Assembly: GCA_015233405.1 (NCBI GenBank)
Contig: JADFXT010000011.1
Location: 490 to 64,489 of the forward strand
Origin: Candidatus Omnitrophota bacterium
GTDB taxonomy: Bacteria; Omnitrophota; Gorgyraeia; Zapsychrales; Zapsychraceae
Reading direction: 5' to 3'
Length of the DNA stretch: 64,000 nt
Shown here: piece by piece, positions 18,546-30,197 of the stretch
How positions within the stretch are numbered: position 1 is the stretch's first letter
Layout: each line of letters opens with the position of its first letter
Translations under genes and position numbers: made by a program
Notes under the pieces: generated by a model
What the model saw: the letters and a program-made list of their open reading frames with translations, nothing else
Told to the model about the DNA's origin: nothing
The model's database searches: none

Positions 18546-19637
18546 TTATAAGATCGCCTCATCAATCACCGCCCCGCCTAAAACAATATCACGATCATAA
18601 AAGACCACTGACTGGCCCGGCGTGACGGATTTCTGAGGCTCTTTAAATTCAATTTTGACTTTATCGCCTGTTAAATACATTAAAGACGCTTTTACTTCGC
18701 GAGCATTATAGCGAATACGTGCCTGGACCTCCAATATTTCTTTAGGAAATTCTTCGGCCAACCAATTCAACTGGCTTGCCAAAAGCCCTCGGGCATAAAG
18801 ATTGTCCTGCCGCCCGACATGAACCGTATTCGTTACCTTATCGATTTTAAAAACATAAACCGGGAAACCCAAGGCGATCCCTAACTTCTCTCGCTGGCCA
18901 ATGGTATAATGAGCGATTCCCTTATGTTTTCCGACGACCTTTCCCTGTTCATTAACAAAATCGCCCGGGACAAACGTATCTTTTCCGACGATCTCCTCAA
19001 CAAAGGCTTGATATCCGCCGTCTGAAACGAAACAGATGTCCTGACTTTCCTTTTTCTCCGCCGTATTCAGCTGATAGTGACGGGCAAGCTCGCGGACTTC
19101 GTCTTTACGCTTATCGCCTAAAGGAAATAATATTTTCGGCAAGAATTCTTTTTTAATACCATAAAGAAAATACGATTGGTCTTTTAAAGAATCGTCGGCT
19201 TTTTGAAGCTCGTAAGCTCCGTCGGTATAAATGACCTTAGCATAATGGCCCGTGGCCAAATAATCCGCACCGGACTCAGCCGCAACTTTTAAAAGGCTTC
19301 CGAACTTTAACAGCTGATTACACCGCACACACGGATTAGGGGTCCGGCCGGCTAGATATTCCTTCACGAAATCGTCGACGACAAAATTTTTCAAATCAGC
19401 CTCAAAATCCAGCACATGATGAGAAATTCCAAGAATTTTAGCCGCCTGCCGCGCGTCCTGAATCCCGTCCGCCCCACAGCACGAAGGCTTCTTACTGCCG
19501 GGGTAATGGACATTAAAACACATGGTAATGCCTTCCACATCATACCCTTGGGTTTTAAGCAGTGCGGCAGCGACGGAGGAATCCACTCCGCCACTCATAG
19601 CGACGAAAACTTTTTTATTTTTTATATTGTTCATCAT
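18546..19637 (-). CDS. mnmA: tRNA 2-thiouridine(34) synthase
   Basis: PP-loop VAMSGGVDSSVAA; C-terminal MnmA pattern. Confidence 0.9.
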   Translation of the reverse strand: MMNNIKNKKVFVAMSGGVDSSVAAALLKTQGYDVEGITMCFNVHYPGSKKPSCCGADGIQDARQAAKILGISHHVLDFEADLKNFVVDDFVKEYLAGRTPNPCVRCNQLLKFGSLLKVAAESGADYLATGHYAKVIYTDGAYELQKADDSLKDQSYFLYGIKKEFLPKILFPLGDKRKDEVRELARHYQLNTAEKKESQDICFVSDGGYQAFVEEIVGKDTFVPGDFVNEQGKVVGKHKGIAHYTIGQREKLGIALGFPVYVFKIDKVTNTVHVGRQDNLYARGLLASQLNWLAEEFPKEILEVQARIRYNAREVKASLMYLTGDKVKIEFKEPQKSVTPGQSVVFYDRDIVLGGAVIDEAIL

Positions 19638-21664
19638 TATTCCGAAATATGTTTAATCGATAAATAAGTCGCATCCAGAAGTTCCTTCAACTCCTTGATG
19701 CTCATCGACAAAGGCGGCATGAGAACGATGACATTGCCTAACGGTCTTAAAATCACACCGTGCTCCCGTGCCTTTTGGCAGACTTTAACACCTATCCGCT
19801 CTTCCCACGGGAATGGTTCTTTCGCCTCTCGATTCTTCACCAGCTCTATTCCTATCATAAATCCTCGCTGGCGCACATCTCCGACGTATTTTAGGTTATA
19901 AAATGACTTCAACTTCTTCTCTAAAAATTTAATTTTCGGCTGAAGCTTTTGAAGCGTTTTTTCTTCTTTAAAAACCTTCAGACTCGCCAACGCAGCAGCA
20001 GAACAAATCGGATTACCCGTATACGTATGCCCATGGAAAAACGTCTTCTGGTCTTTATAATCAAATAAAAAACCCTGATAAATTTTATCCGTCGTCAACG
20101 TTGCCGCTAGCGGCAGATATCCGCCGGTGATGCCTTTCGCCAAACACAAGATATCCGGATGAACATCCTCATGCTCACAGGCGAACATCTTTCCGGTACG
20201 CCCAAAACCTGTTGCGACCTCATCAACAATAAAAATAACGTTATATTTTTTACAAAGCTCTTCCATGCGCTTTAGAACTCCGTCGGGCCACATGATCATG
20301 CCTGCAGCGCCTTGAACAATGGGCTCCACAATTAAAGCGGCAATCTCGTCGTGTTTTTCACGCAATGTCGCTTCAAATTTATCTAAACATTCAAAGGCAT
20401 AATCCGGGTATGTCTTGCCAACGGGCGCACGGTAACAATCCGGAAAATCAAGCTGCATGGTTTTAAATACCAAATCGCGGTACACTCGATGAAATAGCCC
20501 AATTCCGCCGACACTCACACTACCCAAGGTGTCACCATGATACGAATTCGCGAGATGAACCAGCGTACGCTTTTGAGTCTTTCCGATATTCTGCCAATAT
20601 TGATAAGCGATCTTGATAGCAACCTCGACGGATGTCGAGCCGCTGTCCGAATAAAAAACCTTGGCCAGACCTTTTGGTACGATCTCAACCAACCTTTTAG
20701 CCAATTCGATTGACGGAGTATTGGCCAGCCCTAAAAGGGTCGAATGGTCCAACTTATTTAATTGTCGCTCAATCGCTTCATTGATCTTAGGATGCCGATG
20801 ACCATGAACATTGACCCACAAGCTGGACACGCCGTCCAAATAACGATTCCCATCAGAATCAGTTAAATAACTTCCCTTGGCCTCGTCGATCACCAGCGGC
20901 CTCTCGCCAAGCCAATCTTTCATCTGGGTAAACGGATGCCAAACATATTCCTTGTCCCAATCAACCAGTTGTTGAGTCCTAGACTCTTTCGACTCTTTCA
21001 AAATAGCATTGATATTAATAGTCCGTCGGCATTTCTGATAAACATGCCTTCTGTCAAAATTTTTCAAAAAAGGAACGATACCCAAAACAGGAACATCGCC
21101 AAGCTTTTTGATAATCTCCGGATTCATTTTCTCCGGTAAACCTTTAACAGACTTTTTGCTTTCACTGAAAACAACGCCTTTGACCTTAAGCCCATAGTGC
21201 CGGATCTGTTTGATCGTCAACAGCGTGTGATTGATCGTGCCCAATCCTAGACGGGCAACAACAATAATCTCTAAATCCAGATCTCTGGCCAAGTCGGCCA
21301 TAAGATACTTGTCTTTAATGGGCACCAGAAACCCGCCAGCGCCTTCGACGAGTAAAAGGTCATGCTTTTGAGAAAGCGCCCGGAATTCCTTTTGAATTTT
21401 CTCAATATTAAATTTTATCTTAGCTCGAGCCAGCGCCAAATGCGGAGATAATGGCTCTTTGGCAAAATAAGGATTAATAGATCTGACATCATCGTCGAGA
21501 TGAAGCGACTTTTTTAAGAACTGCGCATCCTCGCCAGCGCACTGGACCGGCTTCATGACGCCAACATTGATACCCTTTTGCTGGGCCAAGAGCCCCAAAA
21601 CATACGTCGTCATTGTCTTCCCGACGCCGGTATCTGTTCCTGTTATAAAAAAAGCTTTGGTCAT
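19637..21664 (-). CDS. bioA: fusion: dethiobiotin synthetase (BioD) + adenosylmethionine-8-amino-7-oxononanoate aminotransferase (BioA)
   Basis: The N-terminus has the BioD P-loop FITGTDTGVGKT. The C-terminal ~450 aa is a class-III aminotransferase (WHPFTQ...). The ATG at 21664 overlaps the bioC stop as ATGA. Confidence 0.85.
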   Translation of the reverse strand: MTKAFFITGTDTGVGKTMTTYVLGLLAQQKGINVGVMKPVQCAGEDAQFLKKSLHLDDDVRSINPYFAKEPLSPHLALARAKIKFNIEKIQKEFRALSQKHDLLLVEGAGGFLVPIKDKYLMADLARDLDLEIIVVARLGLGTINHTLLTIKQIRHYGLKVKGVVFSESKKSVKGLPEKMNPEIIKKLGDVPVLGIVPFLKNFDRRHVYQKCRRTININAILKESKESRTQQLVDWDKEYVWHPFTQMKDWLGERPLVIDEAKGSYLTDSDGNRYLDGVSSLWVNVHGHRHPKINEAIERQLNKLDHSTLLGLANTPSIELAKRLVEIVPKGLAKVFYSDSGSTSVEVAIKIAYQYWQNIGKTQKRTLVHLANSYHGDTLGSVSVGGIGLFHRVYRDLVFKTMQLDFPDCYRAPVGKTYPDYAFECLDKFEATLREKHDEIAALIVEPIVQGAAGMIMWPDGVLKRMEELCKKYNVIFIVDEVATGFGRTGKMFACEHEDVHPDILCLAKGITGGYLPLAATLTTDKIYQGFLFDYKDQKTFFHGHTYTGNPICSAAALASLKVFKEEKTLQKLQPKIKFLEKKLKSFYNLKYVGDVRQRGFMIGIELVKNREAKEPFPWEERIGVKVCQKAREHGVILRPLGNVIVLMPPLSMSIKELKELLDATYLSIKHISE

Positions 21665-22449
21665 TTTTCCGCCTCGGTCCAAATCACTTCCAAGGTCGCA
21701 TAAATCCCATCGACAGACTTAAAACGGCTATCATAATAGTCGCCCACCCGCTTAAGAAGGTCTTTCCCGACGTAAAAATTGCGATCTAAGGCATTAGCCC
21801 CAATATCTTTGATCCACTTAAGCAATGCCATCATATTAGGGAAATATAATTTTTTTTCTTCAGCCCTCATCTTCACATCCTTAAACCCGGCTGTTAAAAG
21901 TGCTTGATAAACGTCTTTATCCGTCGCAAGACGGGTAAAGGAACAGCCTTTCCTTCCGTCGAACATCTCTTCAAAGGAAAAGAACAGCTCTTTAAATGTT
22001 TGATGACCAAACATAGTGACGACCATCTTCCCGCCAGGCTTTAGAACTCGCTCGTTCTCTTTAAACGCCTGCGCCAAATTACCGACCCATTGGTATGCTA
22101 AATTAGATGTAATCAAATCAAAACAGGATTGCTTAAATGGCAATTCCTGCGCCTGGGCTTGGACCATCGCAAAACCCTTTTTATGCCGTCGGGCCGACTG
22201 GATCATTCCGTCAGCAAAATCAAGGCCGATAACCTGTGCCTGGGGAAATGTTCGGCCCAATTGTTCCGTTAACCAGCCCGTCCCCATGCCAATATCCAAC
22301 ACCGAACTCGGAGCGGAAAAGCTTTTCAGCGTCGATAAAATTCCAGACCCGATTTCCTGATGGAATTTGGTCAAACCCTCATATCTCGCTGATGAGGCTG
22401 AAAAAGCTTGACGGATTTTCTTGTCTAAAGAAGTGTTATTTGAAATCAC
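21661..22449 (-). CDS. bioC: malonyl-ACP O-methyltransferase
   Basis: SAM motif VLDIGMGTGWLT and bio-operon context. GTG start overlapping the upstream stop. Confidence 0.75.
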   Translation of the reverse strand: MISNNTSLDKKIRQAFSASSARYEGLTKFHQEIGSGILSTLKSFSAPSSVLDIGMGTGWLTEQLGRTFPQAQVIGLDFADGMIQSARRHKKGFAMVQAQAQELPFKQSCFDLITSNLAYQWVGNLAQAFKENERVLKPGGKMVVTMFGHQTFKELFFSFEEMFDGRKGCSFTRLATDKDVYQALLTAGFKDVKMRAEEKKLYFPNMMALLKWIKDIGANALDRNFYVGKDLLKRVGDYYDSRFKSVDGIYATLEVIWTEAEK

Positions 22450-25509: not shown

Positions 25510-25517
25510 AAGCAATG

Positions 25518-25546
25518 ATATTACTTAACCAAAAGCCTATTGTCAA
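25518..25546 (-). promoter_or_regulatory. candidate sigma70 promoter of birA-bio operon (predicts a leaderless or near-leaderless mRNA)
   Basis: The minus strand reads TTGACA-17 nt-TAATAT. The -10 box ends 8 nt before the birA ATG, and no SD is present. Confidence 0.5.
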
Positions 25547-25572
25547 CCGATATGTAAAACATGGTTTACAAT
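25539..25572. promoter_or_regulatory. BirA operator (bioO-like inverted repeat)
   Basis: ATTGTCAACC-N14-GGTTTACAAT, with 9/10 complementary arms. It resembles the E. coli bioO half-sites TTGTAAACC/GGTTTACAA and overlaps the -35 box of the birA promoter. Confidence 0.65.
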
Positions 25573-25608
25573 GAAATCCTAGGGAAGGATTAACGATAAA
25601 ATGGGGAA

Positions 25609-25637
25609 TTGACAACAAGAAAAGTCGATGTTATATT
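25609..25637 (+). promoter_or_regulatory. candidate sigma70 promoter driving the repeat array and the tRNA-Ala/tRNA-Leu genes
   Basis: TTGACA-17 nt-TATATT on the plus strand. No other plus-strand gene lies downstream before the tRNAs. Confidence 0.55.
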
Positions 25638-25655
25638 GAGGGACATTTAATTTGG

Positions 25656-26110
25656 AATTTGGGGCACGCGCCCTATTTTTGTTCTGTGAAAAAAACTTAG
25701 AGATGATCTTTTTGGGGCTGCCCCGACTAAATGCGTCGGGACAACTTCCCATATTCTTTAAAATATTATAGATTTTTTGGGGGCTGTCCCAACTAAAACC
25801 GTCGAGACTGCTTCCCATGTTCTTTAAAATATTATAGATTTTTGGGGGGGCTGTCCCGACTAAATTCGTCGGGACTGCTTCCCATGTTCTTTAAAATATT
25901 ATAGATTTTTTGGGGGCGGCCCCGACTAAAACCGTCGAGACTGCTTCCCATGTTCTTTAAAATATTATAGATTTTTTGGGGGCTGTCCCGACTAAAACCG
26001 TCGAGACTGCTTCCCATGTTCTTTAAAATATTAAAGATTTTTTGGGGGCTGTCCCAACAAAAAACGTTGGGACATGCTCCCAGTTTTCTTCTGAAAAACA
26101 TTTAGTTGTA
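25656..26110 (+). repeat. tandem array of ~7 units (65-66 bp) resembling internally deleted tRNA-Ala genes (minihelix-like)
   Basis: Units: U1 25709-25773, U2 25774-25839, U3 25840-25905, U4 25906-25971, U5 25972-26037, U6 26038-~26110, plus degenerate U0 ~25656-25708. Consensus: TTTTTGGGGGCTGTCCCGACTAAAACCGTCGAGACTGCTTCCCATGTTCTTTAAAATATTATAGAT. Confidence 0.85.
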
Positions 26111-26115
26111 AAACT

Positions 26116-26188
26116 GGGGCTGTAGCTCAGCTGGGAGAGCGCCTGAATGGCATTCAGGAGGCCAGGGGTTCGATCCCCCTCAGCTCCA
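26116..26188 (+). tRNA. tRNA-Ala (anticodon GGC)
   Basis: Folded by hand. Acceptor stem GGGGCTG/CAGCTCC with G3:U70; D stem GCTC/GAGC; anticodon stem CCTGA/TCAGG with loop ATGGCAT; T arm AGGGG-TTCGATC-CCCCT. CCA is not encoded. Confidence 0.9.
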
Positions 26189-26241
26189 TTGAATATTTTC
26201 TAGATTATCCTGTTTCCTTTTTAAATCACAGAAGAACAGGG

Positions 26242-26259
26242 TCAGCTCCACCATTGAAT
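26242..26259 (+). repeat. duplicate of the tRNA-Ala 3' end plus trailer (TCAGCTCCA-CCA-TTGAAT)
   Basis: It matches 26180-26194 (TCAGCTCCA|TTGAAT) with an extra CCA, and is preceded by the hairpin CCTGTT...AACAGG (26209-26240). Confidence 0.6.
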
Positions 26260-26298
26260 TTAAAAAATCCATTCGTTCTTTTTATTAAAATCTATCTT

Positions 26299-26381
26299 GC
26301 TGGAGTGGCGGAATGGCATACGCGCCGGTCTCAAAAACCGGTGTCCTCACGGGCGTAAGGGTTCGACTCCCTTCTCCAGCA
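26299..26381 (+). tRNA. tRNA-Leu (anticodon CAA)
   Basis: 83 nt. Acceptor stem GCTGGAG/CTCCAGC; anticodon stem CCGGT/ACCGG with loop CTCAAAA; 15-nt variable arm; T arm AAGGG-TTCGACT-CCCTT. Confidence 0.9.
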
Positions 26382-26420
26382 TAATTTTTTCCAGAAATGT
26401 CCCGCGTTTTCTAAGCGGGG

Positions 26421-26435
26421 CTCCAGCACTTAATT
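26421..26435 (+). repeat. duplicate of the tRNA-Leu 3' end plus trailer (CTCCAGCA-CT-TAATT)
   Basis: It matches 26374-26386 (CTCCAGCA|TAATT), and is preceded by the hairpin CCCGC-gttttctaa-GCGGG (26401-26419). Confidence 0.5.
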
Positions 26436-26570
26436 GACAAGTTCCTCGTCGATAAACAATCCTCCTCACCCGCTTTTGGCACATTCTTGGCACACAATAT
26501 CATAAAAATTCGTTTTCCAGCTCCCACTTTTTATGGCAGCTGAAAGCAGTGGTCGGTTATACATCCTGAT

Positions 26571-28433
26571 TTATTTTATATTCCCGGAAAAAAACTGCTG
26601 AAAATTGCGCAAAACTTTTGAAGGGGCGGTCTCGACCGGCGTTAAAAACAGGCCGCGCTTACGGAAGAACAACCCTAAGGAAGGATAACTACAGAACATG
26701 GATATCGGTACGGCAAAAAGAAGCGGGATCACAATAACGGAGACCCACCAAAACAAAGTTTTATTGACGGCAAAAGCAATTATTCCCCAAACCAAGGCCC
26801 CCATCATCCCCGGCCAATAAGCCTTAAACGCCTCGGCAAACGACGTCTTGTGTGACCGTCGGGACTGACTTTTCCAGACCAATTTTTGGCCGACCAGATT
26901 TAAGACCACATACCACATGTGGAATATCATCCTTAGCGGCGCCAAGATCGTCGAGAATATCGTCTCAAGAAGAACGCTTAACGATAACCGCATCACTCCG
27001 CCGAATCGCTGTACCTTTTTTGGAGACACGGCGATAAGAATAACACTTAAAATTTTAGGGATAAAAAGGAACAAAGCCGTGACCACCAAAAGATGAATGG
27101 ATAATTCACGATATTGGACCGGCCAATGAGGAAAGAGCGTACGCTCCGCCGAGAAATATACCGTCGTATGAAAAAAGTTCGCGATGGCATGCGCTGTCAT
27201 CAACGCCAGAAGCAGGAACCACATAAACGACGAGAAATAAAAAAGGTTGCCGTTTAAAAAAAGCAACCGATGCCCGAAGGTAAACCCCTTCATGAACATA
27301 AGCCGTAAGTGCTGGATGTTCCCCTGACACCAGCGTCGGTCGCGCTCAAGCTCCTCTAAAAGATTCGGCGGCAACTCTTCATAACTTCCTTCCAGTTCAT
27401 AGGCGAGCCACACGCCCCATCCGGCGCGGCGCATCAAGGCCGCCTCGACGAAATCATGACTAAGGATTTCTCCGCCGAACGGAGGCCCGCCGGGAAGTTT
27501 CGGCAGGGCGCAATATTTCATGAACGGCTCCATGCGGATAATCGCGTTATGCCCCCAGAAAGCGGATTCATCCAGCTGCCAAAACCTTAACCCTGAAAAA
27601 AACAGTGGCCCATACACATGGCTTGCGAACTGCTGCAATCGTGAAACCAAACTTGTCTGGTTCATGGCCGCCGGTGCTGTCTGCAAGATTCCGATATCGT
27701 CTCGGCTTTCCATCATGTTGGCCATTTTGACCAACAGCTCGCCCTCCATCAGGCTGTCGGCATCAAAAATAATCATATATTTATACTGGCTTCCCCATCG
27801 CCGACAAAAGTCGCTAACATTCCCGCTTTTCTTATGAATACGTAGTTTGCGCCGACGATAAAAGACCCGGCCGAACCCGTCGACATCCCTGCACAATTCT
27901 GACCAGGCTGTCTCCTCCATCAGGACATATGCGTTCTCAACCGAATCGCTTAAAATAAAAATATCGAACCGATCCAGTTGTCCCGTTTCTTTGAGTGACT
28001 CGTATGTCGCCCGTAACGATGAATAAATTCGCGCCATTTCCTCGTTATAAACGGGCATGATAAGTGCGATACGGGTTTTGGGGTCAATCGGCTTAGGCTG
28101 CTCGGGAAGCGGCAGGGCATCGTCTTTTCCTCGAAGCGCTACCCAAAATCCGAAAATAACCGTCCAGAAATTAAAAGAGATCCAGCCGAACAAAAAAAGA
28201 TAAGTTCCGATAATGACCCAAGTTAACGGCGTGAACCCTTGCGCACCCATAATGGTGGTGAATTTAGAGCCGGCGATAAAAATAGAAACAGCGACGAGGA
28301 TAAAAAAAATGGTACGACGAACTGCTAGGACCCTATCTTGCCGCTTATTACTGCGAGGCAATGCCACAGCGGTGAACGGCCGATAGGCCATGGGAGTTCG
28401 ACATAAGGAAGGTTGTAGACGAGCGCGTATCAT
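26571..28433 (-). CDS. opgH: osmoregulated periplasmic glucan glucosyltransferase H (GT2, membrane)
   Basis: 620 aa, GT2 core with ILSDS, FDADS and QGNIQH(R)W-like (RWCQGNIQHLR) motifs flanked by TM segments. The ATG overlaps the opgG stop as ATGA. Confidence 0.85.
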   Translation of the reverse strand: MIRARLQPSLCRTPMAYRPFTAVALPRSNKRQDRVLAVRRTIFFILVAVSIFIAGSKFTTIMGAQGFTPLTWVIIGTYLFLFGWISFNFWTVIFGFWVALRGKDDALPLPEQPKPIDPKTRIALIMPVYNEEMARIYSSLRATYESLKETGQLDRFDIFILSDSVENAYVLMEETAWSELCRDVDGFGRVFYRRRKLRIHKKSGNVSDFCRRWGSQYKYMIIFDADSLMEGELLVKMANMMESRDDIGILQTAPAAMNQTSLVSRLQQFASHVYGPLFFSGLRFWQLDESAFWGHNAIIRMEPFMKYCALPKLPGGPPFGGEILSHDFVEAALMRRAGWGVWLAYELEGSYEELPPNLLEELERDRRWCQGNIQHLRLMFMKGFTFGHRLLFLNGNLFYFSSFMWFLLLALMTAHAIANFFHTTVYFSAERTLFPHWPVQYRELSIHLLVVTALFLFIPKILSVILIAVSPKKVQRFGGVMRLSLSVLLETIFSTILAPLRMIFHMWYVVLNLVGQKLVWKSQSRRSHKTSFAEAFKAYWPGMMGALVWGIIAFAVNKTLFWWVSVIVIPLLFAVPISMFCSYPSLGLFFRKRGLFLTPVETAPSKVLRNFQQFFSGNIK

Positions 28434-30040
28434 GGAAGATAAGTGTAGCTCCAGGTCTCGGTCACGGGGAGGTCCTTACTCTTGAGAAAAGCGCGCATTT
28501 CAATGGACGGTTTCTGAGTAGGCAAAAGCCCTTCAATGAGCCCGGGATTATCTAACTGGATATGAATCACCAACCGCCACCCGCCGGTGGCGGTGTTTTT
28601 GATAAGCTGAGAGCTAGTAATCCTCGCGCCTTGGCTCACCCAAACATCCGGATCAATCGTCCTATTTGCGAGGACAGTCTTAAATTCATCCCCCAGAAAA
28701 TCAATAAGAAACATGGCCCCGTCGGACTTTTTAACTATTCTTGTCGATTCTACAAAACCTTGCGAGGACCGCGGCTTCTGGGCAGCGTGCCAGGAAAGAG
28801 TGTAGGCAAATTGCAGCGTGTCCCCATGCTCCAGCGCCCGTTCCGGGACCCAGTAAGCCCCGATATTGTCATTATACTCAGTTTCCGTCGGAAGCTGTAT
28901 CAATTCAAGATGTCCCTTGCCCCAATCGCCCTTGGGAGTGACCCACACACTCGGGCGCTTTTCATACCGGGCCTCGAGGTCCTGGTAATGGTCGAATTTG
29001 ATATCGCGCTGGATGAGCCCAAAACCCATCGGCATCCCAGCAAAGGCATTGATCAAAAGTTTCTGAGGATTGACCAACGGATGCCAAAGCCATTCTCCTG
29101 ATTGGGTGCGCAACAAAAGCCCGTCGGAGTCATGCACCTCAGGACGAAAATCGCTGCTCCCTTTAAAACCGGTATTTTCACCGTAACAAAACATAGAGGT
29201 CAAGGGCGCAAGTCCAAGCTTCTCAATATGTCCACGGACATAAAGCACGCTACTGACCTTCATCAACGTCTCTTCGCCGGGAGTCACTATAAATTCATAC
29301 GCTCCGGTCACACTCTCACTATCAAGAAGCGCATAGAACGTAATTGACTTTGCCCCGGACGAAGGATGCACAAGCCAAAATTCGCGGAACAAAGGAAATT
29401 CCTCCCCCGTGTCCTCGGCGGTGTTGATGGCCAGGCCCCGCGCCGACATCCCATAGGCCAAGCCGCGACCCAGGGCCCTAAAATAACTGGCGCCTAAGAA
29501 TGCCACGAGCTCGTCGGCATATTGAGGAGTGTTCAAAGGATAATGGATACGAAAACCGGCAAAACCGTAATCACCCAAGAGCGCCCCTTTAAGGTCCGTG
29601 CCGGCATATTGAAAAAAATTAGGAGAGAAGGAAACTAAATGTGTACCGGCCTGATCGACATAATGGACGGTCACGGGATGCTGATACAAGAAGCCCGGAT
29701 GAAAAAACTGGACGCTAAAAGGTTCATTGAACCAAAGGCTGTTGGCTGGCTTAAAATGGATGTCCCGCCACTGGTCATAACCCATCTTTTTAAGAACATC
29801 GGGCAGGTCCTGTCCAGGCGGCTGAAAAGACCCTTCCGCCAAAGCCTTGGCTTTAGCGACCACATCCTGAAAACGCACATAGGGATCCGCTTTATTCTTT
29901 CCAGAAGCTATGGCAAACGATGGAGCCATCAAAAACAGAAAGAGAAACAATCCAAAAATAACCAACCATGAACGGAAAACCGTTCTTTGAAAAAGGACAT
30001 CTTCGTTATTCATAAAAGGAAAAATAGTACGCTTCTCCAT
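28430..30040 (-). CDS. opgG: periplasmic glucan biosynthesis protein OpgG/OpgD family
   Basis: MdoG-like sequence throughout (FHPGFLYQHPV, FREFWL...) with an N-terminal signal-like segment LVIFGLFLFLFLMAPSFAIA. The start is uncertain (30040, 30013 or 30097). Confidence 0.8.
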   Translation of the reverse strand: MEKRTIFPFMNNEDVLFQRTVFRSWLVIFGLFLFLFLMAPSFAIASGKNKADPYVRFQDVVAKAKALAEGSFQPPGQDLPDVLKKMGYDQWRDIHFKPANSLWFNEPFSVQFFHPGFLYQHPVTVHYVDQAGTHLVSFSPNFFQYAGTDLKGALLGDYGFAGFRIHYPLNTPQYADELVAFLGASYFRALGRGLAYGMSARGLAINTAEDTGEEFPLFREFWLVHPSSGAKSITFYALLDSESVTGAYEFIVTPGEETLMKVSSVLYVRGHIEKLGLAPLTSMFCYGENTGFKGSSDFRPEVHDSDGLLLRTQSGEWLWHPLVNPQKLLINAFAGMPMGFGLIQRDIKFDHYQDLEARYEKRPSVWVTPKGDWGKGHLELIQLPTETEYNDNIGAYWVPERALEHGDTLQFAYTLSWHAAQKPRSSQGFVESTRIVKKSDGAMFLIDFLGDEFKTVLANRTIDPDVWVSQGARITSSQLIKNTATGGWRLVIHIQLDNPGLIEGLLPTQKPSIEMRAFLKSKDLPVTETWSYTYLP

Positions 30041-30197
30041 AAGGATACTGTTAAAAAGATTAAGATAATATATACTACAAAAACAACCGAAATACACTGT
30101 TTTTCTGAAGAAACCTCAATAACATGGAGCCCCTTGTGCCAAAGCAGATAAAATATTTTAATTCCCAAGCACTTCTTTTTATGGTAATTTAAAACAT

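What the first reader, a model, noticed from the sequence alone, without database searches (positions are those of the whole stretch)
25656..26110. Tandem array of ~7 tRNA-Ala-like 'minihelix' units in the predicted leader of the tRNA-Ala/tRNA-Leu operon
The units are U0 ~25656-25708 (degenerate), U1 25709-25773 (65 bp), U2 25774-25839, U3 25840-25905, U4 25906-25971, U5 25972-26037 (66 bp each) and U6 26038-~26110. The true tRNA-Ala follows at 26116. The consensus is TTTTTGGGGGCTGTCCCGACTAAAACCGTCGAGACTGCTTCCCATGTTCTTTAAAATATTATAGAT. Three things are seen directly. (1) GGGGCTGT at the 5' end of each unit equals the first 8 nt of the adjacent tRNA-Ala. (2) GCTTCCCA after the hairpin resembles the tRNA 3' acceptor strand GCTCCA. 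(3) The unit tail AATATT-a-TAGATT matches the genuine tRNA-Ala trailer AATATT-ttc-TAGATT (26192-26206). Each unit therefore looks like a tRNA-Ala gene plus trailer in which the D, anticodon and T arms are replaced by a single hairpin of 8 bp with a 7-nt loop. The acceptor-like strands can pair (G:C, G:C, G:U, G:U, G:C, C:G), which keeps G:U wobbles near the helix end. The inner hairpin shows a compensatory change: U3 is GTCCCGAC/GTCGGGAC and U6 is GTCCCAAC/GTTGGGAC, both perfect. U2, U4 and U5 carry C.A mismatches. A near-consensus sigma70 promoter (TTGACA-17-TATATT, 25609-25637) points into the array. The units are therefore predicted to be transcribed as the 5' leader of the tRNA precursor. 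It is established that acceptor/T-arm minihelices bearing G3:U70 are in vitro substrates of AlaRS and RNase P. My inference is that the array could yield ~40-nt tRNA-like RNAs that are chargeable, act as decoys, or serve as processing modules. The alternative is that it is a decaying tandem duplication of the tRNA gene.
Basis: partly seen in the sequence, partly recalled or inferred. Interest (0 to 1): 0.8.

Follow-up and report, generated by a model that had tools for sequence, protein, structure and literature searches.

The report
Repeated hairpins in tRNA-Ala leader
Six to seven tandem copies of a 66-base hairpin module lie between the promoter and the tRNA-Ala gene of an uncultured Omnitrophota bacterium; the same hairpin occurs twice before tRNA-Ala in two other Omnitrophota genomes, so it looks like an undescribed leader element that was locally amplified, not a set of chargeable mini-tRNAs.

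Summary
The array is real: period 66, 5.8 copies, 89% matches. It consists of a collapsed remnant U0, five young copies U1-U5 (85-95% alike) and one old tRNA-proximal copy U6 (67-71% to the others).

It sits inside the 5' leader of the tRNA-Ala(GGC)/tRNA-Leu(CAA) operon. The promoter at 25609-25637 is orthologous to the one that lies 36-48 nt upstream of tRNA-Ala in relatives that have no array.

Each unit folds as 5 bp, an unpaired U6, then at least 5 bp and a variable tip. Its 5' arm repeats tRNA-Ala nt 1-8.

Two other Omnitrophota MAGs carry two such hairpins before tRNA-Ala(GGC). They share the 11-nt 5' arm and a GGGAC-GCCCC 3' arm, but their tips and linkers are unrelated. The hairpin therefore appears to be a conserved element absent from Rfam, and the long array a lineage-specific amplification with decaying copies.

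The tRNA-mimic reading fails. The G3:U70-like pair and a CCA end are not conserved, the helix length is wrong, and tRNA models do not hit. The claimed trailer match is at chance level (p about 0.27).

Four linkers match the boxA consensus GYTCTTTAANA exactly, which suggests Nus-factor loading in this lineage only. What the hairpin does remains inferred.

The parts
25609..25637 (+). Promoter of the tRNA-Ala/tRNA-Leu operon (TTGACA-17-TATATT with an upstream TG)
   Evidence: It matches 11 of 12 consensus positions. It aligns with the ATTGACAA...(G/T)ATGTTATATTG promoter that sits 36-48 nt upstream of tRNA-Ala(GGC) in L001, L005 and L142.
25661..25713 (+). U0, a collapsed unit: a short hairpin GGGGC-ACGC-GCCC plus a T-run, then the boxA-like TGTTCTGTGAAAA (25680-25692) and a tail homologous to the other tails
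   Evidence: The 6-bp hairpin has an energy of -9.1 kcal/mol. It was flagged as terminator-like. The boxA-like site has 1 mismatch to TGYTCTTTRAMAA.
25714..25779 (+). U1, a young copy; hairpin 25714-25751 with one C.A mismatch and an AA change in the 3' arm; boxA variant ATTCTTTAAAA at 25753-25763
25780..25846 (+). U2, a young copy; the hairpin has two mismatches; exact boxA consensus at 25819-25829
25847..25912 (+). U3, a young copy with a perfect hairpin (5 bp, unpaired U6, 8 bp, 7-nt loop); exact boxA consensus at 25886-25896
   Evidence: Folding energy is -22.1 kcal/mol with z -6.0.
25913..25978 (+). U4, a young copy; 5' arm GGGGCGGC; two mismatches; exact boxA consensus at 25952-25962
25979..26044 (+). 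U5, a young copy; one C.A mismatch; exact boxA consensus at 26018-26028
26045..26115 (+). U6, the old tRNA-proximal copy (67-71% identical to U1-U5); the hairpin at 26045-26081 is perfect thanks to an A:U compensatory pair; the tail is degenerate (TTTTCTTCTGAAAAA at 26084-26098)
   Evidence: Identity values are. Folding energy is -23.5 kcal/mol with z -6.2. The compensatory pair is shown. A small alternative hairpin plus T-rich tail was flagged as terminator-like.
26116..26188 (+). tRNA-Ala(GGC), CCA not encoded; its first 8 nt are the sequence repeated in every unit
   Evidence: ARAGORN; Rfam RF00005 at 65 bits
26299..26381 (+). tRNA-Leu(CAA), the second gene of the operon
26242..26259 (+). 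Repeat of the tRNA-Ala 3' end plus the start of the trailer (TCAGCTCCA-CCA-TTGAAT), with CCA inserted relative to 26180-26194
   Evidence: Local alignment scores 22 against a shuffle mean of 10.4, p about 0.0006.

Best explanation
The segment is a lineage-specific amplification of a small cis-element that belongs to the 5' leader of tRNA-Ala(GGC) genes in some Omnitrophota.

The element:
- It is a stem-loop of 5 bp (GGGGC/GCNCC), an unpaired U6, at least 5 bp (GUCCC/GGGAC), and a variable tip.
- Its 5' arm is a copy of tRNA-Ala nt 1-8.
- It is followed by an A/U-rich linker of 17-33 nt.
- The ancestral state was probably one or two copies, as in the two other genomes.

The amplification:
- In this genome, unequal recombination between the repeats expanded the element to U0 plus five young copies plus the old proximal copy U6.
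- The young copies are drifting; their stem substitutions are uncompensated. U6 has kept a perfect stem.

How it most likely works (inferred, not shown):
- The whole array is transcribed from the conserved operon promoter as a leader of about 480 nt.
- Each unit folds co-transcriptionally. This keeps its 3' arm, which is complementary to the tRNA's 5' acceptor strand, locked away from the tRNA.
- The leader is removed by RNase P at G+1 of tRNA-Ala, probably with extra cuts in the A/U-rich linkers.
- In this lineage each linker carries a boxA-consensus motif. The hairpin-plus-boxA modules may therefore load NusB/NusE and keep RNA polymerase termination-resistant across the long untranslated leader.

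Status of the steps:
- Shown: the anatomy, the position in the leader, the conservation of the hairpin arms in three genomes, and the age structure of the copies.
- Inferred: transcription, processing, Nus binding, and any benefit of the hairpin.

Position in the leader:
- The promoter is orthologous to that of relatives whose tRNA-Ala starts 36-48 nt after the -10 element. The array is therefore an insertion or expansion inside the leader.

Related loci:
- A scan of 185,579 species genomes for GGGGCTGT three times at 53-73-nt spacing was cut off at 120 loci.
- Only two of the 120 loci were tRNA-linked, and both are Omnitrophota MAGs (L078, L121).
- In each, two units start with GGGGCTGTCCC and carry a 3' arm GGGA(C/U)GCGCCCC or GGGACGCCCC. 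They lie directly upstream of tRNA-Ala(GGC).
- The extra CCC and the complementary 3' arm were not part of the search pattern. Their chance probability is below 1e-7.

Structure:
- All family hairpins fold as 5 bp, unpaired U6, then at least 5 bp, with z -2.6 to -6.2.
- 87.9% of cells are paired in register, against at most 60% when partners are slid.
- Tips and linkers are unrelated between genomes while the arms are identical.
- U6 is about 30% diverged from U1-U5 yet keeps a perfect stem through a compensatory change.
- In L078 the only promoter-like site lies upstream of the first unit.

boxA:
- GYTCTTTAANA, the consensus of PMC5725501, matches exactly four times in the array. The expectation for the whole window is 0.45. 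U0 has 1 mismatch to the broader consensus.
- BoxA protecting long untranslated transcripts from Rho has a precedent in CRISPR arrays (PMC7665894).
Against: - Only three genomes carry the element. The nearest relatives by BirA (62-72%) and by tRNA-Ala (97% for L001) lack it, so the distribution is patchy.
- The arms are invariant, so the outer stem gives no covariation. Only 4 cells in three apical pairs change on both sides.
- Four of the six window hairpins carry mismatches.
- boxA is absent from the L078 and L121 units. The four exact matches count as one evolutionary event. The boxA consensus of Omnitrophota is unknown.
- U0 and U6 look like weak intrinsic terminators. If they are efficient, they would argue against read-through from the upstream promoter.
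- There are no expression data.
- The copy number in a short-read MAG assembly could be wrong.
Confidence: 0.5

Rival explanations
1. The array is a purely neutral minisatellite. A hairpin-prone piece of leader that happened to include the tRNA's first 8 nt was duplicated by slippage. Neither the array nor the hairpin has any function.
For: - Stem substitutions in U1-U5 are uncompensated, and four of six hairpins are imperfect.
- Variable sites are not significantly rarer in the hairpin than in the tail (8 of 37 against 3 of 29, p=0.32).
- The element is absent from the closest relatives.
- The exact unit was not found in GTDB species genomes or JGI metagenomes.
Against: - The same 11-nt 5' arm and GGGAC-GCCCC 3' arm lie at the same place in two other Omnitrophota genomes. 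Their tRNA-Ala is only 84-88% identical, and their tips and linkers are unrelated.
- U6 keeps a perfect 16-bp stem at about 30% overall divergence.
Confidence: 0.2
2. One reading: the units are tRNA-Ala-like minihelices. They are cut out by RNase P or RNase Z and are then charged by AlaRS, or act as decoys for it.
For: - The 5' arm equals the acceptor 5' strand.
- In L078 and L121 the helix begins exactly at G1 in three of four units.
- A G:U pair at the third position is possible in some registers in the window.
- It is established, from my own knowledge, that acceptor minihelices with G3:U70 are AlaRS substrates and that hairpins can be RNase P substrates.
Against: - The 3' arm is GCCCC in L078 and L121, which gives G3:C.
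- There is no conserved discriminator A and no CCA. In the window the 'CCA' is base-paired to upstream G/U.
- The stem is 15-16 bp rather than 12 bp, and the loop is not UUCRANY.
- The Rfam tRNA and mascRNA models give no hit at E up to 10.
Confidence: 0.08
3. The primary function is antitermination. Each unit is a nut-like boxB-boxA module, and the array is a multi-copy Nus-factor loading site for the tRNA operon.
For: - The boxA consensus matches exactly four times, against 0.45 expected in the whole window.
- U0 and U1 carry near matches.
- The order, hairpin then boxA, is that of rrn leaders (my own knowledge).
- BoxA upstream of long non-coding arrays is known (PMC7665894).
Against: - The conserved part of the family is the hairpin, not the linker. 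L078 and L121 units have no boxA.
- The boxA region is not better conserved than the rest of the tail between U0, U1-U5 and U6.
- SuhB ChIP in E. coli found Nus targets at rRNA and suhB, and no tRNA operons are reported in the text searched.
Confidence: 0.15
4. The units are scars of site-specific recombination or of repeated insertion of a small element at the 5' end of tRNA-Ala. The 8-nt identity would then be a target-site duplication.
For: - The distribution is patchy.
- The locus is rearranged: the tRNA block is inverted relative to L001, and opgGH is inserted.
- A separate duplication of the tRNA 3' end with an added CCA lies downstream.
Against: - There are no terminal inverted repeats.
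- No recombinase or transposase is among the neighbouring genes that were scanned.
- Units within one genome share only the arms.
- The 3' arm is complementary to the supposed target duplication, which a simple insertion does not explain.
Confidence: 0.07
5. The units are tandem weak promoters, or terminator-promoter modules, that tune tRNA output.
For: - TCGAGA-17-TAAAAT matches 9 of 12 positions in U2, U4 and U5.
- L078 has T(C/T)GGGA...TAAAAT in both units.
- The G-to-A change that breaks the stem improves the -35 match.
Against: - The spacers are 15 nt in L078 and 17 nt in the window. The distance from the -10 element to the next G1 ranges from 4 to 19 nt.
- The scans of L078 and L121 report no such sites inside the units on the tRNA strand.
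- Most units lack a U-tract next to the stem.
Confidence: 0.05

Closest known systems
tRNA-linked tandem repeats of E. coli tyrT (178-bp repeats, rtT RNA; from my own knowledge, not retrieved here)
   Same: Both are tandem repeats next to a tRNA gene. Each repeat contains a piece of the tRNA, and the repeats are co-transcribed with the tRNA and processed. Both probably arose by unequal recombination.
   Different: The tyrT repeats lie downstream and carry the tRNA's 3' end (about 19 nt), with a 178-bp period. Here the repeats lie upstream, carry the 5' end (8 nt) and form a hairpin with a 66-bp period. The element recurs in other genomes. The Rfam scan that includes RtT gave no hit.
boxB-boxA (nut-like) antitermination signals of rRNA leaders and CRISPR leaders (PMC5725501, PMC7665894)
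   Same: A hairpin is followed by a single-stranded GYTCTTTAANA motif in an untranslated transcript just after a strong promoter.
   Different: There are four exact copies and about three near copies instead of one. The signal is in front of a tRNA operon, not an rRNA operon or a CRISPR array. The motif is missing from the homologous units of two other genomes.
tRNA-Ala acceptor minihelices or microhelices and hairpin substrates of RNase P (my own knowledge)
   Same: A G-C-rich helix begins with GGGGCUG, the acceptor 5' strand of tRNA-Ala.
   Different: There is no conserved G3:U70, no A73-CCA and no T-loop. The helix is longer and contains an unpaired U6.
Functional external transcribed spacers of tRNA precursors (3'ETS-leuZ sRNA sponge; my own knowledge)
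   Same: A non-tRNA part of a tRNA precursor may have a role of its own after processing.
   Different: No target or partner RNA is known here. This is a 5' leader, not a 3' spacer.
Type III toxin-antitoxin antitoxin RNAs (ToxI-like tandem repeats; my own knowledge)
   Same: Short tandem repeats are transcribed and could be cut into unit-length structured RNAs.
   Different: No toxin gene follows; tRNA genes follow instead. The repeat is about twice as long.

Membership tests
tRNA / tRNA-like RNA (Rfam RF00005, RF01684 mascRNA) | Match to the covariance model (cloverleaf, or acceptor plus T-arm) | tested here: not met
   Only the two true tRNAs hit. No unit hits even at E up to 10. The same holds for L078 and L121.
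AlaRS-chargeable minihelix-Ala | G3:U70 wobble pair in the acceptor helix | tested here: not met
   The pair is possible only in some registers in the window. The 3' arm is GCCCC (G3:C) in all four units of L078 and L121.
AlaRS-chargeable minihelix-Ala | Single-stranded discriminator A73 plus a CCA 3' end | tested here: not met
   The base after the helix is A, G, G or U in L078 and L121. In the window the CCCA is paired with upstream U/G. Whether processing would create a free 3' end cannot be tested here.
RNase P minihelix substrate | 12-bp acceptor/T-stem stack capped by a T-loop-like 7-nt loop | tested here: not met
   The window stems are 15-16 bp with the loop UAAAWYC. The other genomes have 10 bp plus variable tips of 18-32 nt. 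Cleavage itself cannot be tested.
boxA (Nus factor binding site) | Match to the consensus GYTCTTTAANA | tested here: met
   There are exact matches at 25819, 25886, 25952 and 26018, against 0.45 expected per window. The consensus is from PMC5725501.
boxA (Nus factor binding site) | Conserved at the same place in related loci, and matching the organism's own rrn boxA | tested here: not met
   It is absent from the L078 and L121 units. Only weak T-rich resemblance is seen in the L001, L005 and L142 leaders. No rrn operon of this organism was available for comparison.
boxA (Nus factor binding site) | Binding of NusB/NusE and resistance to Rho | not testable with these tools
   This needs binding assays or reporter assays.
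Intrinsic terminator | G+C-rich stem directly followed by a U-tract | tested here: inconclusive
   U0 and a small alternative hairpin in U6 are flagged. U1-U5 are not. None of the full L078 or L121 unit hairpins is flagged. Within L121 unit 1 a small 6-bp hairpin with a weak T-rich tail was flagged.
CRISPR array | Conserved repeats separated by unique spacers of about 30 nt | tested here: not met
   The whole 66-bp period is repeated at 85-95% identity, with no variable spacers.
tRNA-linked tandem repeats | Tandem repeats next to a tRNA gene, each containing a segment of that tRNA | tested here: met
   The 8-nt 5' segment is present in every unit, next to the tRNA, on the same strand.
Dispersed palindromic elements (REP/BIME-like) | Many copies scattered in intergenic regions of the genome | tested here: not met
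   There is no copy outside the array in 64 kb. In the other loci the motif occurs only upstream of tRNA-Ala.
Protein-coding repeat (minus-strand ORF 25832-26101) | Known family, or a conserved reading frame in the homologous units | tested here: not met
   No Pfam family reaches its cut-off. The periods in L078 and L121 (61-72 nt) are mostly not multiples of 3. Substitutions between units change amino acids.

The most novel reading that the evidence does not exclude
The hairpin is a new class of cis-acting tRNA-leader riboregulator restricted to Omnitrophota. It is an acceptor-strand mimic whose 3' arm can pair either with its own 5' arm or with the identical 5' strand of the nascent tRNA-Ala. 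This would gate acceptor-stem formation and RNase P processing, or act as a pseudo-substrate that titrates a tRNA-Ala-binding factor. Copy number would tune the effect.
Probability: 0.2. Interest if true: 0.75.

Novelty: new variant of a known kind. Interest (0 to 1): 0.5.

Why it matters
Leaders of bacterial tRNA precursors are usually treated as short disposable sequences. A conserved leader hairpin that copies the tRNA's own 5' acceptor strand, that is specific to one isoacceptor, and that can be amplified to seven copies would be a new handle on how tRNA folding, 5' processing or transcription elongation is controlled in an uncultured phylum. It would also be a new candidate RNA motif for Rfam. 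If the boxA reading holds, it would extend Nus-factor antitermination to a tRNA operon. If the neutral reading holds, the locus is still a clean example of how a tandem array is born and decays next to a tRNA gene.

Tried and rejected
- Exact-unit pattern scans gave nothing useful. The scan of species genomes found nothing. The scan of JGI metagenomes found one hit in a high-GC organism after an RNase III gene, which I take to be chance.
- Three arm-pattern hits in viral contigs are chance hits in high-GC DNA with no tRNA nearby.
- Syntenic loci reached through BirA (L001-L010, L140-L143) carry the tRNA pair or nothing, and none has units.
- Loci reached through OpgH (L012-L016) and through L078's PstS (L144-L147) are not syntenic and hold no tRNA.
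- The other 118 loci of the triple-8-mer scan are unrelated repeats. I take many of them to be CRISPR arrays, judging from their spacing and variable flanks, but this was not verified. Four that looked similar (L105, L114, L048, L025) have periods of 28-60 nt and no linked tRNA-Ala.
- The minus-strand ORF with 22-aa repeats is a by-product of a period divisible by 3.
- The boxA-like match at 56462 lies antisense inside a coding region, so it is chance.
- The tail-trailer homology is rejected statistically.
- Whole-leader minimum-energy folds mix inter-unit pairings and were not used as evidence.
- Literature searches found no description of such an element.
Full report
**What is there**

Tandem Repeats Finder reports one array at 25705-26090 with period 66, 5.8 copies and 89% matches, plus a 133-bp higher-order period. 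ARAGORN and Rfam place tRNA-Ala(GGC) at 26116-26188 and tRNA-Leu(CAA) at 26299-26381 on the same strand. Nothing else in the window reaches an Rfam threshold. At E up to 10 no unit resembles tRNA, mascRNA or any other family.

In the GGGGC register the units are U1 25714-25779, U2 25780-25846, U3 25847-25912, U4 25913-25978, U5 25979-26044 and U6 26045-26115. They are preceded by a collapsed copy, U0, at 25661-25713. No further copy of either half of the unit exists in the 64-kb window.

**Structure of a unit**

Each unit folds into a long hairpin followed by an A/U-rich tail. U3 and U6 are perfect, with z-scores of -5.4 to -6.3 against shuffles. U1 and U5 have one C.A mismatch each, and U2 and U4 have two each. 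U2 and U4 fold no better than shuffles.

The shared architecture has four parts:
- 5 bp (GGGGC with GC..CCC),
- an unpaired U at position 6,
- 8 bp (GUCCCGAC with GUCGGGAC),
- a 7-nt loop.

In the 38-nt folds G1-G3 pair with C, and the two U's bulge out.

**Age structure**

U1-U5 are 85-95% identical to each other. U6 is only 67-71% identical to them, and U0 is more diverged still. Within U1-U5 every substitution in the stem is uncompensated. The G-to-A change in the 3' arm is shared by U2, U4 and U5 and is therefore a single inherited event.

Between U3 and U6 one G:C pair has become A:U, so the old tRNA-proximal copy has kept a perfect stem. The array therefore looks like two old copies (U0, collapsed; U6, intact) with a recent five-fold amplification between them.

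1. The 8-nt identity with tRNA-Ala nt 1-8 is real.
2. The resemblance of the 3' arm to the tRNA's 3' acceptor strand follows from its complementarity to that 8-mer. It adds nothing independent.
3. The similarity between the unit tail and the tRNA trailer is not significant. Shuffling gives p about 0.27, and 281 of 2433 other 52-nt window segments score as well.

The picture of 'a tRNA gene plus trailer with its arms replaced' is therefore not supported.

**Organism and context**

The gene upstream on the minus strand is BirA, followed by bioF, bioH-like, bioC-like and bioD-bioA genes. Downstream on the minus strand lie opgH and opgG. BirA is 100% identical to a protein of a Candidatus Omnitrophota MAG, and its nearest relatives are 72%, 66% and 62% identical.

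In those relatives tRNA-Ala(GGC) and tRNA-Leu(CAA) also lie next to birA, but without any array. Their promoter, ATTGACAA-N16-(G/T)ATGTTATATTG, aligns with the window's 25609-25637 promoter and lies 36-48 nt upstream of the tRNA. In the window it lies 478 nt upstream.

The array is therefore an expansion inside the operon's 5' leader.

The tRNA block is also inverted relative to the L001-type arrangement, and opgGH is inserted.

**Related sequences**

The exact unit is absent from 185,579 species genomes. In JGI metagenomes it has only a chance hit.

A structural pattern was more informative. I searched for GGGGCTGT three times at 53-73-nt spacing. The scan returned 120 loci and was cut off there. 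Only two of the 120 are tRNA-linked, and both are Omnitrophota MAGs:
- L078: JAUYCX010000015.1
- L121: JBAZLB010000006.1

In each, two units precede tRNA-Ala(GGC):
- L078: GGGGCTGTCCC-32 nt-GGGATGCGCCCC, a 17-nt linker, GGGGCTGTCCC-19 nt-GGGACGCCCC, a 21-nt linker, then the tRNA.
- L121: GGGGCTGTCCC-18 nt-GGGACGCCCC, a 21-nt linker, GGGGCTGTCCC-19 nt-GGGACGCCCC, a 23-nt linker, then the tRNA.

The CCC after the 8-mer and the complementary 3' arm were not demanded by the pattern. Their joint chance probability is far below 1e-7.

All four hairpins fold as 5 bp, unpaired U6, 5 bp and a tip, with z -2.6 to -5.0. Tips and linkers are unrelated between genomes and even within a genome.

On an alignment of nine hairpins, 87.9% of cells pair in register against at most 60% when partners are slid. 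The arms are invariant, however, so covariation is limited to four cells in the three apical pairs.

In L078 the only promoter-like site lies upstream of the first unit.

By tRNA-Ala identity the window is closest to L001 (97%), which has no units. It is more distant from L121 (88%) and L078 (84%). The distribution is therefore patchy.

**What this means**

The hairpin arms are conserved at a fixed place in three genomes whose surrounding non-coding sequence is not alignable. This argues that the hairpin is maintained rather than being a passing duplication.

The large array in the window is a local amplification, and most of its copies are decaying.

The features needed for the AlaRS or minihelix idea are not part of what is conserved:
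- The 3' arm is GCCCC in L078 and L121, which gives G3:C.
- There is no discriminator A or CCA.
- The stem length does not match the 12-bp acceptor/T stack.
- The loops are not T-loop-like.

**The boxA motif**

The tails of U2-U5 contain GTTCTTTAAAA. This is an exact match to GYTCTTTAANA, the functional boxA consensus derived for gamma-proteobacteria (PMC5725501). There are four matches in the array, one antisense match inside a gene elsewhere, and 0.45 expected per window.

U0 has TGTTCTGTGAAAA, one mismatch to the broader TGYTCTTTRAMAA (that broader consensus is from my own memory of rrn leaders). U1 has ATTCTTTAAAA.

A hairpin followed by boxA is the order found in rrn leaders. BoxA is also known to protect long untranslated CRISPR transcripts from Rho (PMC7665894). 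NusB/NusE loading on this 480-nt untranslated leader is therefore plausible.

Three cautions apply. The four matches are one evolutionary event. The motif is absent from the L078 and L121 units. The Omnitrophota boxA is unknown. I treat boxA as a lineage-specific addition, not as the reason the hairpin exists.

**Mechanism I commit to**

- The array is transcribed from the conserved promoter as part of the pre-tRNA (inferred).
- Each hairpin closes co-transcriptionally (inferred).
- The leader is removed by RNase P at G+1 of tRNA-Ala, with likely cuts in the A/U-rich linkers (inferred).

The 3' arm is complementary to the tRNA's own 5' acceptor strand, and without the G:U it would pair more strongly than the tRNA's 3' strand does. 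A whole-leader fold of L078 indeed pairs the last 3' arm with the tRNA 5' end. I do not use that fold as evidence of function.

The 5' arm is identical to the tRNA's first 8 nt and would normally keep that 3' arm occupied. Three readings remain open:
- a gate on acceptor-stem formation,
- a pseudo-substrate for an enzyme that reads the tRNA-Ala 5' end,
- a stable leader structure with no further role.

**Rivals**

- A fully neutral minisatellite fits U1-U5 but not the cross-genome conservation.
- Tandem promoters fit a few 9-of-12 matches, but the spacings are inconsistent.
- Insertion or recombination scars fit the patchy distribution and the rearranged locus. However, there are no element ends and no recombinase, and the model does not explain the complementary 3' arm.
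- A minus-strand ORF with 22-aa repeats is a by-product of a period divisible by three.

**Limits**

Only three genomes are known, and the informative scan was truncated. There are no expression data and no rrn operon from this organism. The copy number rests on a MAG assembly.

Noticed in passing
window 26180-26194 and 26242-26259: The last 9 nt of tRNA-Ala plus the start of its trailer (TCAGCTCCA TTGAAT) recur 62 nt downstream with CCA inserted (TCAGCTCCACCATTGAAT). The repeat is preceded by a CCTGTT...AACAGG hairpin at 26209-26240. The resident tRNA does not encode CCA, so the copy may come from another tRNA-Ala allele, for example as an integration scar. Alignment p is about 0.0006.
   Followed up: partly
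window 25540-25571: The inverted repeat TTGTCAACC-N14-GGTTTACAA overlaps the minus-strand promoter of birA (TTGACA-17-TAATAT, 25546-25518). It resembles the E. coli bio operator (from memory). It is conserved upstream of birA in L001, L009 and L142. This suggests BirA autoregulation of a birA-bioF-bioH-bioC-bioDA operon.
   Followed up: partly
window 25510-30100 compared with L001 5605-6001: Relative to the 66%-BirA relative, the promoter-tRNA-Ala-tRNA-Leu block is inverted. In addition, opgH and opgG are inserted between the tRNAs and the spermidine-synthase-like gene. The opgH relatives at about 80% identity sit in quite different neighbourhoods.
   Followed up: partly
window 25660-25685: Right after the predicted start site there is a 6-bp hairpin (GGGGC ACGC GCCC) followed by TTTTTG. 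It looks like a weak intrinsic terminator or attenuator about 20-40 nt into the transcript. I read it as a collapsed unit (U0), but it could limit read-through into the array.
   Followed up: partly
window 25832-26101 and 25579-25818, minus strand: Open reading frames of 89 and 79 aa run through the array because the period is 3 x 22. The 89-aa frame encodes repeats of MGSSLDGFSRDSPQKIYNILKN. It has no Pfam family and no ribosome-binding site upstream.
   Followed up: yes
window 25802-25807, 25935-25940, 26001-26006: The G-to-A change shared by U2, U4 and U5 breaks a stem pair. It also turns TCGGGA into TCGAGA, which improves a -35-like hexamer placed 17 nt upstream of TAAAAT (9 of 12).
   Followed up: no
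L009 1-86, L010 1-50, L004 1-189: Metagenome contigs of BirA relatives end inside or right at tRNA-Leu or tRNA-Ala. The region upstream of the tRNAs in the 72% relative could therefore not be read.
   Followed up: no
L121 4560-4684 (minus strand, downstream of tRNA-Ala): The CCA-encoding tRNA-Ala is followed by a long inverted repeat (CCAAAATTTTCCGACAAGGAAAATTTTGG). A second copy of TTCCGACAAGGAAAATT lies about 90 nt further on.
   Followed up: no
window 19637-21682, minus strand: A single 681-aa ORF combines a dethiobiotin-synthase-like AAA_26/CbiA domain with a class-III aminotransferase domain, a BioD-BioA fusion. The same fusion is present in the relatives.
   Followed up: no
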